Positions 12,636 through 63,708 of a stretch of DNA of 64,000 nucleotides are shown here, piece by piece. The stretch is taken from assembly GCA_963775425.1 (NCBI GenBank), contig CAVZJB010000009.1, positions 272,616 to 336,615 on the forward strand, written 5' to 3'. The first letter of the stretch is position 1. Each line of letters opens with the position of its first letter. The notes below the pieces were generated by a model, which saw only the letters and a program-made list of their open reading frames with translations, ran no database searches and had not been told where the DNA came from. Origin of the DNA: an uncultured delta proteobacterium (GTDB lineage: Bacteria; Myxococcota; UBA727; VGSZ01). Made by a program: the position numbers and the translations under genes.

Positions 12636-14304
12636 TCACGCGCGGCCGGCGAGGACGTCCTTGTGGTCGGCGCGCAGGCGCTGCTTGAGGAACTTGCCGG
12701 TGGAGGTGCGCGGGATTCTGATCGACGAAGACGTAGGCGTCGGGGAGCCAGAACCTGGCGAACTTGCCGTCGAGGTGCGCGGTGAGCTCTTTGTCGGTGA
12801 CGGTCTGTCCCTGCCTCACGACGATGGCTGCGACGGGCCGCTCGTCCCACTTGGCGTGCGGCGCGCCGAACACCGCCGCCTCGAGGACGGCCGGGTGCGC
12901 CATCAGCGCGTTTTCGAGCGCGACGGAGCTGATCCACTCGCCGCCGGACTTGATGACGTCCTTGCTGCGGTCGGTGATGTGCATGTAGCCCTCGGGCGTG
13001 ATGGTGACGACGTCACCCGTCTTGAACCACCCGTCCTTGGTGAAGCGGTCCTTGCCTTCGTCCGCCATGTAGCTGGCGGCGACCCACGGCCCGCGCACCT
13101 CGAGCTCGCCCATGGCCTTGCCGTCCCACGGCAGCACGGTGCCGGCGTCGTCGACGTGGCGCATCTCCACGAGCGGCGCGGGCACGCCCTGCGACGCGCG
13201 CGCCGCGAGCACCGCCTCCGGCCCGCGCTTACGCACCGCAGGCGTGACGCGGGCGAGCGTCCCGAGGGGGTTCATCTCGGTCATGCCCCAGGCGTGCGTG
13301 ACCTCGATGTCGTGGCGCTCGAGGAAGCCCTGGATGAGCGACGCCGGCGCCGCAGAGCCGCCGATGATCATGCTGCGGATGGCGGAGAGGTCCCACTGCT
13401 TGGGCGCGGCGTCGAGCTTGTCGAGGATGGCGAGCCAGATGGTGGGCACGCCGCCGGCGAGCGTGACCTTCTCCTTGGCCATCAGGTCGAGGAGCGACAC
13501 GGCGTCGAGGTGGGGCCCGGGGAAGATGAGGCTTGCGCCGTTCAGGAACGCGGCCCAGGGCAGGCCCCACGCCGCGGCGTGGAACATGGGGACCACGGGG
13601 AGGACGACGTCGCTGCTGCCGACGCCGATCATGTCGCGCATGGACACGGCCATGGTGTGCAGCATCACCGAGCGGTGCGTGTAGACGACGCCCTTGGGGT
13701 TGCCGGTGGTGCCGGACGTGTAACAGATCATCGCCGCCGTCTTCTCGTCGATGTCGACCGCGAAGGGCGAGCCCGCCGGCGGCGACGTGCCGGTGGCGTG
13801 CGCCGACGCCTGCTGCGCCTCGAGGAGCGCTTCGTAGTCGTGCGCGCCTTCGGGGACGGGGCCGCCGTCGTCGCGGACCACGATGACGTGGCGGACGCTC
13901 TTGCAGCGCGCGCGAAACTTCTCCCACAGCGGCCACAGCGTGCGGTCGACGACGACGACGCTGTCCTGCGCGTGATCGACGATGTACGTGAGCTCGTCGG
14001 GGTGAAGGCGCAGGTTGAGGGTGTGGACCACCGCGCCCATCGCGGGGACGCCGAGGTACACCTCGAGGTGCTCGCGGTGGTTCCAGCACAGCGTGGCCAC
14101 ACGGTCGCCTTGCTTGACGCCGAGGGCCGCGAGCGCGCGGGCGCAGCGCTCGGCGCGGGTGTACGTGTCGGCGAAGCTCTGGCGCACGACGGACTTGTCC
14201 GGGCGCCGGCTCACGACCTCTGCGTCGCCGAAGAGCGCGCGCCCGCGCTCCAGGAGGTGACCGAGGCTCAGCGGGAAGTCCATCATGCGGTCGTCGAGGT
14301 TCAT
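12636..14304 (-). CDS. fadD: long/medium-chain fatty-acid--CoA ligase (AMP-dependent synthetase), disrupted by a 1-nt insertion near the 3' end
   Basis: Motifs YTSGTTGNPKGV, GEL..RG, FKTGD. After ...VFVDQ the frame shifts by +1. The shifted frame reads the canonical IPRTSTGKFLKQRLRADHKDVLAGRA* and stops at about 12636. The unshifted ORF runs to 12436 as Arg/Pro-rich junk. Confidence 0.8.
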
Positions 14305-14482
14305 GGCGGCGCTTTTACTGCGATTCGCACGGCGTGACGACCGGCTGCTGCGGCGCCGGCGCGCGAGGCATGAGCGAGAAGGCGCTGTGCGAAATCGCCG
14401 GCTGTCTCACGACGATGAGGTGGGTTTCTGCGTGCTACTGCCGAGATGAACGACCGCGCGCATCGCGCGCCACGAGGATTCG

Positions 14483-15691
14483 ATGGCAGCACGCTTTTTC
14501 CCGCTCCGTCCCGTTGTTGTCACCCTCGCCGCAAGCTTCGTGGCAGCCGCGTGCGCCCCCGACAGCGCCGCGCGCCCGCCGGCCAAGGGCACGCACCCCG
14601 CCGGCGAGGGTGACGTCGCCGGCGAAGGGGAGGGCGAGAGCGCCGAAGGAGAGGGTGAGAGCGCCGGCGAAGGCGAGGGCGAAGGGGACGTCACCGGCGA
14701 GGGCGAGGGCGAAGGGGACGTCACCGGCGAGGGCGAGGGCGAGGGCGAGGGCGAGGGCGAGGGCGAAGGGGACGTCGGCGCCGAGGTCTGGCGGCCGTTC
14801 TCCGACGCGAGCCCGTGGAACACGCCCATCCCCGCGAACGCGGCGGTGGATCCGGACAGCGCCGCGCTCGTCGACGACTTCATGCACAGCTCGCCCTTCG
14901 GCGTGCACCTCGACATCAACATCACCGGCTTCTCCATCCCGCTGTTCTTCGCGGACGGCAGCACGCCGCAGGTCCCCATCGTCGCGGGCATCGGCGGCGA
15001 GGGCTGGGGCGCAGGCGGCTTCAACGCCTCCCTCGCCATGCCGTTGCCGCCGGGCGCCGCGCCCGATCCGCAGTCGGACCACCACATCTCCGTCGTCGAC
15101 CGCGCGCTGGGGATCGAGTGGGGCTGCTGGGACACGCACCTGGACACCCAGAGCGCGGGCCTGTGCGCCACCACCGATCTCAACGGCGACGGCGTGCGAC
15201 CGCTCGCCGCGGTGGCGAACCCGTGGTGGGACGCGCACGGCGCGCGTGCGTGCGGCTTCCCCCTCGTCGCCGGGCTCATCCGCCCCGAAGAGATCGCCGC
15301 CGGTCACATCCGCCACGCGCTCGTCGTCGCGTACCCGCACATCCGCGCGGGCTTCTACACGCCGCCGGCGTCGACGGCGCAGGCGCGCGTGGGAAGCAAC
15401 TCCATCAGCACGCGCGGCATCCCCTGCGGCGGCCGCATCCAGCTCGACCCGGGCTTCGACGTCGAGCACGCCAACGTCAGCCCCGCCGGCAAGGTCGTCC
15501 TGCGCGCGCTGCAGGAGTACGGCGCGTACGTCGGCGACTACTCCGGCGCCCTCGACCTCTACGCGGACGGCGCCCCCGACGCGCAGGCCGCCTGGAACGG
15601 CGTGCTCGACAGCGGCGCGCTCGGCAACCTCGACATGACGAACCTGCGCGTGATCCAGCTCGGCCAGTTGTTCGACAACGGCAACGGCTGA
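14483..15691 (+). CDS. secreted lipoprotein with long (GE)n acidic linker and C-terminal globular domain of unknown function
   Basis: Signal peptide with LAASFVAAAC lipobox. GEGDVAGEGEGES...GEGEGEGEGEGEGEG. Divergent from fadD. Confidence 0.65.
   Translation: MAARFFPLRPVVVTLAASFVAAACAPDSAARPPAKGTHPAGEGDVAGEGEGESAEGEGESAGEGEGEGDVTGEGEGEGDVTGEGEGEGEGEGEGEGDVGAEVWRPFSDASPWNTPIPANAAVDPDSAALVDDFMHSSPFGVHLDINITGFSIPLFFADGSTPQVPIVAGIGGEGWGAGGFNASLAMPLPPGAAPDPQSDHHISVVDRALGIEWGCWDTHLDTQSAGLCATTDLNGDGVRPLAAVANPWWDAHGARACGFPLVAGLIRPEEIAAGHIRHALVVAYPHIRAGFYTPPASTAQARVGSNSISTRGIPCGGRIQLDPGFDVEHANVSPAGKVVLRALQEYGAYVGDYSGALDLYADGAPDAQAAWNGVLDSGALGNLDMTNLRVIQLGQLFDNGNG
14603..14783. repeat. imperfect (GGCGAG)n / GEGEGE-coding repeat array
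   Basis: Repeated ggcgagggcgaaggggacgtcaccggcgagggcgagggc units seen directly. Confidence 0.55.
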
Positions 15692-62645: not shown

Positions 62646-62831
62646 GGCGGGGCTCCTTCTTTCTGCTGAGCATTTCGTTCGTGTGTGCTCACGGAGAGGT
62701 TCGTCACGGCGCGGGCCCTGATTAAGATCTGCGTCGCCGGATCAACCCGCGCGGACGAATTCGCCGCACAAAAGAGCGCAAGGACGGAGCGAGCCCCGTC
62801 CTCATCACCGCGGCGCGGACCCGCGGGGTCA

Positions 62832-63708
62832 CAGCTTGTCGAGGATGGTGAGCTGGAAGCTCTTGGCGCTCACGGTCAGCGCGGCGTCGAGCGAGCGCTC
62901 GGCGAACGCGAGAATCCGTCGCCGCCTTCGCGATGTCGGCGTCGGTCAGGCCGGCGCGCCTGCCGTCGGCCGCGTCCGCCACGTCGCCCGCGGCGGTCTG
63001 CGCGGCGTCCAGGCCGAGCTCGATGCCGCCGGCGTCGGCGCGGCCGGCGCCGACCTGCGCGATGCCCGAGCGCAGCGTGTCGATGCTCGCGCGCAGCCCC
63101 GTGGTGTCGTTGGTGGACAGCGCGGTGGCCAGGTCGCCGAGGGCCTGGAGGACGTCGACGCCGCCGCCGGCGCCCTTGATGACGACGTCGGCGCGCACGG
63201 ACACGCCCTGCACCACGCCGGGCGCGACCTCGATCTGCCGGACGCCGGCGTCGCCGGTGTAGCTGCCGTCGGCCTGGAACGGGGCCGCGTTGTCGACGGT
63301 GCCGCCCATGACGAAGCGGCCGCCGACGTCGATGTTCAACGCGCTCACGGCTTCGGCCAGCATCTGCGTCGCCTGGCTCGCGGCGCTCGCGCGATCCGCG
63401 CTGTTGTAGGTGCCGTTCGACATCTGGATCGCGAGCTGCTGCGCGCGCGAGAGCGTGTTGATCACCGACGACAGCGCGCCGTCGGCGGCGTTGACGTCGT
63501 CAAGCGCCCGTGACGTCGTGGTCGAGATGCCCGAAGCGCGCACCGCGGCGAAGCGCTCGCGCGCGATCTGCCCCGCGGAGTCCGTCTCCCAGGGGTGCCG
63601 CACGGAGACGCCGGTGGAGGCGCGGTCGGTGGCCTTCTCGTAGCGCTCGCGCGCGGTCTGCGTCGCGGCGTTCGCGTTGGCGAAGATGGAGCTATCAGTG
63701 ACGCGCAC
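62832..63708 (-). CDS. flgL: flagellar hook-associated protein 3 FlgL, disrupted by 1-nt insertion near the 3' end
   Basis: N-terminus MRVTDSSIFANANAATQTAR. After ...AKAATD the listed ORF reads junk (SRVRRALARRR...), but removing one T at gat|t|ctc gives the canonical C-terminus LAFAERSLDAALTVSAKSFQLTILDKL* ending at about 62832. Confidence 0.8.

What the first reader, a model, noticed from the sequence alone, without database searches (positions are those of the whole stretch)
12700..62930. Recurrent single-base insertions in a GATC context disrupt four unrelated genes
fadD (about 12716), the GIY-YIG gene (about 23924), sbcC (about 27624) and flgL (about 62913) each lose frame at the same kind of site. 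On the + strand the sites read GATTCTGATC, GAGAATCG, GAGAATCG and GAGAATCC.

In every case deleting the extra A/T restores a GATC and a textbook protein continuation:
- fadD: IPRTSTGKF;
- GIY-YIG: LDKRLATHNAGRG;
- sbcC: VDLAQPPLCHLGLFAIAGPVGSGKST;
- flgL: LAFAERSLDAALTVSAKSFQLTILDKL*.

Four of four at the same palindrome is not random pseudogenisation. Possible explanations are a systematic basecalling error at a methylated GATC subset, or a genuine motif-specific indel process. Other GAGATC sites, for example near position 25, are intact. Either explanation matters for how the annotation is read. A fifth frameshift, in the Cys-rich repeat gene at about 34722, is a G-run length error.
Basis: seen in the sequence. 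Interest (0 to 1): 0.6.

Follow-up and report, generated by a model that had tools for sequence, protein, structure and literature searches.

The report
Sequencing-artefact frameshifts at GATC sites
Four unrelated genes in this window are each broken by one extra A/T inside a GATC site, and because a known Nanopore-only metagenome genome shows the same lesion, this is almost certainly a sequencing/consensus error rather than biology.

Summary
fadD, a GIY-YIG gene, sbcC and flgL (all minus strand) each carry a +1 insertion turning GATC into GAATC/GATTC at 12714-18, 23923-27, 27623-27 and 62912-16. Deleting one base restores full-length proteins that align with homologues. The hexamer AGAATC occurs exactly four times in the window, only at these sites. 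305 GATC sites are intact. Chance is excluded (p about 1e-6 to 1e-11).

About 1 Mb of high-GC loci from other genomes served as a control. The same lesion turned up four times in 20.7 kb of L064, and all four of its frameshifts are this type. L064 is a Microflora Danica MAG: Nanopore R10.4.1 only, Guppy sup, Flye, one Medaka round, no short-read polishing. One more case is in a 9-Mb single-contig MAG. There are no convincing cases in the remaining control loci, which include all the short-read (SPAdes/MEGAHIT) assemblies.

The window's proteins are database singletons from one unannotated 394-kb NCBI/ENA contig. None of its 101 G/C homopolymers of 5 or more bases is frameshifted.

Best explanation: a GATC-specific long-read consensus insertion, probably induced by m6A. 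Methylation and the window's sequencing platform were not testable. It is not a biological feature, but it matters for annotation.

The parts
12714..12718 (-). Insertion site 1. + strand GATTC (gene strand CAG AAT CCC; corrected CAG ATC CCG). The extra base is one of T12716/T12717.
   Evidence: The frame shifts by +1 here. Deletion restores ...FVDQIPRTSTGKF..., including the invariant A10-motif lysine.
12636..14304 (-). Acyl-CoA synthetase (fadD-like) CDS as it reads after removing the extra base (555 aa). The uncorrected record has a 622-aa product running on to 12436.
   Evidence: The raw 622-aa form is the one on public record (P0001). Homologues are 531-576 aa.
23923..23927 (+). Insertion site 2. 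GAATC in GAGAATCG (gene strand GAT TCT CGA; corrected GAT CTC GAC = D-L-D).
23681..23987 (-). GIY-YIG nuclease-domain gene (about 100 aa after correction; start codon tentative).
   Evidence: Pfam GIY-YIG covers profile positions 2-75 of 78 (59.8 bits) only in the corrected product.
27623..27627 (+). Insertion site 3. GAATC in GAGAATCG (gene strand GAT TCT CGC; corrected GAT CTC GCG = D-L-A), at codon 21-22 of sbcC, upstream of the Walker A motif.
24057..27687 (-). sbcC CDS after correction (1209 aa). The record holds only the 1160-aa ORF 24057-27539 (P0122). sbcD lies immediately upstream (27684-28973).
62912..62916 (+). Insertion site 4. GAATC in GAGAATCC (gene strand GAT TCT CGC; corrected GAT CTC GCG = D-L-A), 27 codons before the true stop of flgL.
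62829..63708 (-). flgL CDS after correction (292 aa). The record holds the 328-aa frameshifted form (P0121). It sits in a flgK-flgL-fliC-fliD-fliS cluster.
34717..34718 (+). A separate error of a different type: a 1-nt deletion in a DUF4215 Cys-rich repeat gene (starts about 34248). It is not at a GATC.
   Evidence: Adding one base gives CDDGTADAGDGCDESC, which matches the neighbouring repeats.

Best explanation
These are not mutations of the organism. They are systematic consensus errors of a long-read assembly, most probably Oxford Nanopore R10.4-type and not short-read polished.

Proposed mechanism:
1. At a small fraction of GATC sites (about 1.3% here) the basecaller or polisher emits the central A (or T on the other strand) twice, writing GATC as GAATC/GATTC.
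2. At the modest coverage typical of a metagenome, this sometimes wins the consensus.
3. In coding DNA, each such event splits or extends a gene.

The most likely trigger is N6-methyladenine in G(m6A)TC on native DNA. It distorts the pore signal, and local sequence modulates the effect (a 5'-A flank, AGATC, is favoured).

Shown:
- the insertions and their exact motif;
- their statistical non-randomness;
- restoration of normal proteins on correction;
- recurrence of the same lesion in an independent Nanopore-only MAG;
- no convincing case in the short-read assemblies.

Inferred:
- that this window comes from such an assembly;
- that methylation is the trigger;
- that the error arises at basecalling rather than at polishing.
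For: 1. Motif specificity. All 4 AGAATC hexamers in the window are the frameshift sites. 4 of the 5 indel-type breaks outside the IS remnant are GATC to GAWTC.

2. Each gene has exactly one lesion. Codon bias stays intact downstream, the 1,160-codon remainder of sbcC stays open, and conserved motifs are intact. That fits an error or an extremely recent event, four times over.

3. Independent replicate. L064 is MFD02416.bin.1.293, whose sbcC N-terminus is only 54% identical to the window's. It has four frameshifts in 20.7 kb, and all four are GATC to GAWTC:
- 9194 in sbcD, where tblastn goes from two HSPs in different frames to one 433-aa HSP after deleting one T;
- 17489;
- 8073;
- about 15790.
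The Microflora Danica long-read MAGs are Nanopore-only: FLO-PRO114M flow cells, Guppy sup, Flye, one round of Medaka 1.8.0, deposited at ENA (PMC12313526). One more case sits at L096:20291, in a 9.0-Mb single-contig MAG.

4. Controls. Across about 1.0 Mb of loci with at least 65% GC (5,867 GATC, 655 GAWTC), no convincing case occurs outside these three contigs. Among AGAATC sites, 6 of 9 are frameshifts in window plus L064 against 0 of 89 elsewhere (Fisher p = 8e-8).

5. Provenance fits. All tested window proteins are 90%-cluster singletons from a single unannotated 394,389-bp contig held by NCBI and ENA, absent from Logan assemblies. The frameshifted forms are the ones on record.

6. Error profile. 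86 five-base, 14 six-base and 1 seven-base G/C runs show no frameshift. The overall indel rate is about 1 per 13 kb, which fits R10.4-class data rather than R9 or CLR.

7. Literature. Methylation motifs, including GATC, cause strand-specific read errors and residual consensus errors in Nanopore assemblies (PMC6591954; PMC11610603; PMC12392509).
Against: - No reads, signal data or platform metadata for this contig could be obtained. The source record is not retrievable.
- The published GATC-associated Nanopore errors I could read about are mainly substitutions (C to T, G to A), not +1 insertions. This exact signature is therefore not documented in the papers consulted.
- No DNA methyltransferase gene is present in the 64 kb.
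- Two other ENA or MFD loci show no event: L011 with 20 GATC and L095 with 142 GATC. The error is therefore not uniform across MAGs. That fits dependence on methylation or coverage, but the reason is unexplained.
- All four hit genes are dispensable ones. Real mutations filtered by selection would also give that pattern.
Confidence: 0.85

Rival explanations
1. Genuine, recent pseudogenisation by a motif-specific mutational process. Some repair, nicking or methylation-linked mechanism would insert an A:T pair inside GATC, and the four genes would truly be inactivated in this organism.
For: - The motif recurrence itself.
- All four genes are non-essential (fadD paralogue, GIY-YIG, sbcC, flgL), as expected if selection filtered real hits.
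- The public record contains the frameshifted forms.
Against: - The same lesion would have to arise independently in unrelated lineages that happen to be long-read MAGs (L064, L096). None is seen in the short-read assemblies.
- L064 would have about 4 broken genes per 20 kb, which is implausible for a free-living large-genome bacterium.
- Each gene carries a single lesion with no further decay.
- I know of no mechanism that adds +1 specifically inside GATC.
Confidence: 0.07
2. A technical artefact caused purely by sequence context or the polisher, and not by methylation. For example, the k-mer around (A)GATC in very GC-rich DNA is mis-segmented, or Medaka/Flye merges strand-discordant calls into an extra base.
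For: - 6 of 8 events have the asymmetric 5'-A flank against 24% expected. A palindromic methylation mark alone does not predict this.
- Three of the four window sites follow a GAGA dinucleotide repeat in a locally high-GC context. Both are recognised Nanopore error categories (PMC12392509).
- Polishers can add errors.
Against: - Every event is inside GATC, the commonest bacterial m6A motif.
- Intact sites with the same 8-mer are far more common: 10 GCGAGATC and 5 TCGAGATC are intact.
- L095 has 142 GATC and no event. That hints at organism-specific dependence, but its platform is unknown.
Confidence: 0.3
3. Programmed recoding: +1 ribosomal frameshifting or transcriptional slippage at A-GAA-TC. 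The genes would then be expressed as full-length proteins despite the extra base.
For: None beyond the shared motif.
Against: - There is no slippery heptamer or homopolymer tract, only AA/TT.
- Orthologues in dozens of genomes are uninterrupted at the same codons.
- The motif lies on the sense strand in one gene and on the antisense strand in three.
Confidence: 0.01

Closest known systems
Methylation-motif consensus errors in Oxford Nanopore assemblies (Dcm CCWGG, Dam GATC and other motifs; Wick et al. 2019, PMC6591954; Liu et al. 2024, PMC11610603; BMC Genomics 2025, PMC12392509)
   Same: - Errors recur at one short motif on native DNA.
- They affect only a subset of motif copies.
[quoted passage not shown]
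- They fall mostly in coding sequence.
- GATC is one of the reported motifs.
   Different: - The reported errors are predominantly substitutions. Here the error is a +1 duplication of the central A/T, which produces frameshifts.
- Methylation of GATC in this organism is not shown.
Indel-induced frameshifts and split genes in long-read assemblies (Watson & Warr 2019, as cited; Sereika et al. 2022, PMC9262707)
   Same: - A single-base indel in the consensus breaks ORFs and inflates pseudogene counts.
- It is corrected by short-read or homology-based polishing.
   Different: The classical cases sit in homopolymers of 4 or more bases. Here every G/C homopolymer of 5-7 bases is in frame, and the indels sit at a non-homopolymer palindrome.
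Genuine bacterial pseudogenes or phase-variable contingency loci
   Same: A frameshift interrupts an otherwise recognisable gene.
   Different: - There is no repeat tract.
- There are no secondary lesions.
- The lesion is identical in unrelated genes and in unrelated MAGs.
- No convincing case occurs in the short-read assemblies.

Membership tests
Nanopore motif-specific consensus artefact | The same error type recurs at one short sequence motif far more often than chance allows. | tested here: met
   4 of 4 AGAATC hexamers are frameshift sites. All +1 events are GATC to GAWTC. p is about 1e-6 to 1e-11.
Nanopore motif-specific consensus artefact | Seen in Nanopore-only assemblies and not in short-read assemblies of comparable genomes. 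| tested here: met
   L064 (MFD, Nanopore-only) has 4 such frameshifts in 20.7 kb, and L096 (9-Mb contig MAG) has 1. No convincing case occurs in the SPAdes/MEGAHIT loci or the other loci.
Nanopore motif-specific consensus artefact | The assembly in question was made from Nanopore reads without short-read polishing. | not testable with these tools
   The source record is not retrievable. There are only indirect hints: an unannotated NCBI+ENA record, a 394-kb contig, proteins that are all singletons, and absence from Logan.
Nanopore motif-specific consensus artefact | Reads show strand-biased, partial support for the extra base, and the error disappears with amplified DNA, methylation-aware models or short reads. 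| not testable with these tools
   No read or signal data are available.
Methylation-induced (m6A GATC) error | GATC is methylated in this organism and a cognate methyltransferase is present. | tested here: inconclusive
   No DNA methyltransferase domain was found among the roughly 55 window gene products scanned, but the window is only 64 kb of the genome. GATC is not avoided (observed/expected 1.9).
Genuine pseudogene | Signs of relaxed selection: multiple lesions, loss of codon bias, truncations. | tested here: not met
   Each gene has one lesion. Codon-bias scores stay high on both sides, and sbcC stays open for 1,160 codons after the shift.
Genuine pseudogene | The lesion is confirmed by independent data or shared with related strains. 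| not testable with these tools
   No relative above 74% protein identity exists in the databases, and all window proteins are singletons.
Programmed frameshift / transcriptional slippage | A slippery sequence is present and the shift is conserved in orthologues. | tested here: not met
   There is no slippery tract, and orthologues are uninterrupted.

The most novel reading that the evidence does not exclude
The extra A:T pairs are real. A GATC-targeted process, for example error-prone repair at GATC nicks made by a MutH/DpnII-like enzyme or at hemimethylated sites, would generate +1 insertions inside GATC in several soil Myxococcota-like lineages and create a recurrent class of young pseudogenes.
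Probability: 0.05. Interest if true: 0.8.

Novelty: not a real feature. Interest (0 to 1): 0.2.

Why it matters
Biologically it means the opposite of what the raw sequence suggests. fadD, the GIY-YIG gene, sbcC and flgL should be read as intact, and the public protein records derived from this contig are artefactual: the 622-aa fadD, the 1160-aa sbcC fragment and the 328-aa flgL.

Methodologically it is a useful warning. In this window and in L064, the dominant residual indel is a non-homopolymer GATC to GAWTC insertion (8 of 9 detectable indels), while homopolymers are clean. Pipelines that treat non-homopolymer frameshifts in Nanopore genomes as 'probably biological' (for example the criteria quoted) would misclassify these. 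Large Nanopore-only MAG catalogues may carry the same signature. It is trivially detectable: search for a GAWTC at each frame break.

Tried and rejected
1. Retrieving the source contig or other strains. Exact-protein look-ups for three window proteins found nothing. Cluster look-ups show every tested window protein is a singleton, and the corrected fadD and flgL sequences are not on record anywhere. The genome-contig scan found no relative above 62% identity for the SbcC N-terminus. Strain-level DNA comparison was therefore impossible.

2. Other frameshift candidates from the codon-bias map.
- About 1900: a single intact ORF in a low-complexity region, not a frameshift.
- All other same-strand frame changes are ordinary gene junctions, most with 4-nt stop/start overlaps.
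- 39801 (GATTC) was flagged by the automated test, but it is the true start ATGAATCC of the urate-oxidase gene.

3. False positives in the controls.
- L008 19236/19637: an IS66-type ORF that is in frame.
- L048 11610: in frame, in the sbcC coiled coil.
- L096 8411: a normal stop, RBS and ATG junction.
- L015 8178 and L039 13907: borderline scores, not convincing.

4. An obligatory 5'-A flank (AGATC). I first thought it was part of the motif (6 of 6), but two L064 events are CGAATC, so it is a preference only.

5. Literature search for this exact insertion signature. I found methylation-motif errors, including at GATC, but no description of GATC to GAWTC insertions.
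Full report
**What is in the sequence**

The window is 72.5% G+C. A self-trained codon-bias map assigns a coding frame to almost all of it.

At four places a minus-strand gene changes frame by +1 with no stop or start codon between the two parts:
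- fadD-like acyl-CoA synthetase, at + strand GATTC 12714-12718;
- a small GIY-YIG gene, at GAATC 23923-23927;
- sbcC, at GAATC 27623-27627 (codon 21-22);
- flgL, at GAATC 62912-62916.

Removing one of the doubled A/T bases turns each pentamer into GATC and joins the two reading frames into a normal protein.
- Pfam finds complete AMP-binding_C and GIY-YIG domains and the SbcC P-loop region in the corrected products.
- NCBIfam scores rise from 549 to 584 bits for fadD and from 100.7 to 124.6 bits for FlgL, with the alignments now reaching the profile ends.
- The corrected SbcC N-terminus aligns as one segment from residue 1 to about 232 in dozens of genomes.
- Every fadD homologue stops where the corrected protein stops. 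Homologues are 531-576 aa, against 622 aa for the raw product.

**Is it more than chance?**

Yes.
- The hexamer AGAATC (either strand) occurs exactly four times in the 64 kb, and those four copies are the four frameshift sites. 147 AGATC and 305 GATC sites are intact.
- If A/T duplications fell at random, the chance that four of four hit the AGATC core is about 5e-9.
- For arbitrary single-base insertions, 4 of 5 doing so has a probability of about 1e-11.

The other frame breaks in the window are of different kinds.
- One is a 1-nt deletion between 34717 and 34718 in a DUF4215 Cys-rich repeat gene.
- One is a decayed DUF772 transposase remnant near 16090.
- The remaining same-strand frame changes are ordinary gene junctions, most with 4-nt stop/start overlaps.

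**Where the window comes from**

The raw, frameshifted products are exactly what public databases hold: fadD 622 aa, flgL 328 aa and the 1160-aa sbcC ORF. The corrected fadD and flgL sequences are not on record.

Every window protein tested is a singleton at 90% clustering. All come from a single unannotated 394,389-bp contig held by NCBI and ENA, and none is in the Logan assemblies. The record itself could not be fetched.

The nearest relatives are Myxococcota-like: 74% identity for fadD and 62% for the SbcC N-terminus. Strain comparison is therefore impossible.

**The decisive control**

I scanned the roughly 1 Mb of loci with at least 65% G+C that the searches had brought in (5,867 GATC, 655 GAATC/GATTC). 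The question was whether deleting the doubled base inside GAATC/GATTC restores a single high-scoring, stop-free frame across the site.

Apart from the window, convincing hits occur in only two contigs.

L064 has four frameshifts in 20.7 kb, and all four are GATC to GAWTC:
- 9194, in sbcD. The window's SbcD aligns as two tblastn segments in different frames to the raw DNA, and as one 433-residue segment after deleting one T.
- 17489, where VVD|LIGLNTPEM is restored.
- 8073, where ACGAATCCG becomes ACGATCCG.
- About 15790, where CAGATTCGG becomes CAGATCGG in a secreted protein with an N-terminal CGGFFC motif.

L064 is contig_35854 of MAG MFD02416.bin.1.293. The Microflora Danica long-read MAGs were made from Nanopore data only: FLO-PRO114M flow cells, Guppy super-accurate basecalling, Flye, and one round of Medaka 1.8.0. 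They were deposited at ENA (PMC12313526).

A fifth external case is L096:20291, where AAGATTCTGG becomes AAGATCTGG. It lies in a 9.0-Mb single-contig MAG.

Loci from SPAdes or MEGAHIT assemblies and from isolate genomes show none. Flagged sites there proved to be gene starts or in-frame ORFs. Among AGAATC hexamers, 6 of 9 are frameshifts in window plus L064, against 0 of 89 elsewhere (Fisher p = 8e-8).

**Interpretation**

An identical, otherwise unknown lesion recurs in unrelated genes of unrelated organisms. It was seen only in long-read MAGs, one of them documented as Nanopore-only and unpolished. That points to a technical artefact and not a mutational process.

Further points agree with this.
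- Each gene has exactly one lesion, with undiminished codon bias and intact motifs downstream.
- L064 would otherwise have about one broken gene per 5 kb.
- The window's indel profile is one error per about 13 kb, with none at its 101 G/C homopolymers of 5-7 bases. This fits R10.4-class Nanopore data, where homopolymers are largely solved and motif-linked errors remain.

The literature documents Nanopore consensus errors tied to methylation motifs, GATC among them. Those are mostly substitutions, however, and I found no description of this particular insertion.

The trigger is most plausibly m6A in GATC, but this was not tested.
- No methyltransferase is encoded in the window.
- A 5'-A flank is over-represented: 6 of 8 events against 24% expected.
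- Three of the four window sites follow a GAGA repeat.
Sequence context therefore contributes.

Only about 1.3% (window) to 2.7% (L064) of GATC sites are affected, and two other ENA or MFD loci show none. This would fit a partial read-level bias that wins the consensus only at low coverage, or in organisms that methylate GATC.

**Rivals**

- A genuine GATC-specific insertion process cannot be excluded without reads. It would need to act in several lineages that all happen to be long-read MAGs. I give it about 5-7%.
- Programmed frameshifting is ruled out. There is no slippery sequence, the motif is on the sense strand in one gene and antisense in three, and orthologues are uninterrupted.

**Verdict**

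Its methylation component remains open.
- The feature is not biological.
- The four genes should be annotated as intact.
- The GATC to GAWTC signature is worth knowing when judging frameshifts in Nanopore-only MAGs, since some recent studies count non-homopolymer frameshifts as probably biological.

Noticed in passing
window 59986-64000 (minus strand): A flagellar filament/hook-junction cluster, flgK (C-terminus) - flgL - flagellin - fliD - fliS, sits in a contig whose other genes are closest to Myxococcota/Polyangia. That phylum is generally regarded as non-flagellated.
   Followed up: partly
L064 8073, 9194, about 15790, 17489; L096 20291: The same GATC to GAATC/GATTC +1 frameshift occurs four times in 20.7 kb of a Microflora Danica Nanopore-only MAG and once in a 9-Mb single-contig Myxococcaceae MAG. 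The artefact is therefore probably widespread in such catalogues.
   Followed up: yes
window 34248-35130 (+): The DUF4215 (Myxococcus-type Cys-rich repeat) gene has a 1-nt deletion at 34717/34718. Its 3' end is also unresolved: after ...CDASEPSVC (about 34930) coding signal fades, and the frame has no stop before it runs antisense into the allantoicase gene. There may be a further indel.
   Followed up: partly
window 15559-16200 (minus strand): A remnant of an IS-type transposase (DUF772 domain) with its own internal frame break and truncation. It looks like genuine decay, not the GATC error. An intact GAGATCTC lies inside it.
   Followed up: partly
window 33803-41922: A purine/urate degradation cluster:
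- transthyretin-like HIU hydrolase;
- allantoicase fused to OHCU decarboxylase;
- an amidohydrolase;
- a membrane urate oxidase (Urate_ox_N) with a SCO1/SenC partner;
- a DUF6986 protein.
   Followed up: no
window 47829-52202 (minus strand): A 1457-aa single-module NRPS-like protein with an N-terminal formyltransferase domain followed by A-T-TE domains. It sits next to an asparagine synthase and an ABC transporter.
   Followed up: no
loci L005, L015, L043, L045, L083/84 versus L023, L025, L035, L036, L048: GATC frequency differs about 70-fold between lineages of similar G+C. Observed/expected is 0.08-0.25 in Myxococcus, Pyxidicoccus and some Archangium loci, and 5-6 in Nannocystaceae and Enhygromyxa. 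This suggests strong lineage-specific avoidance or enrichment of GATC.
   Followed up: no
window 9320-11119 (minus strand): A bacterial protein with a calpain-family (Peptidase_C2) cysteine protease domain.
   Followed up: no
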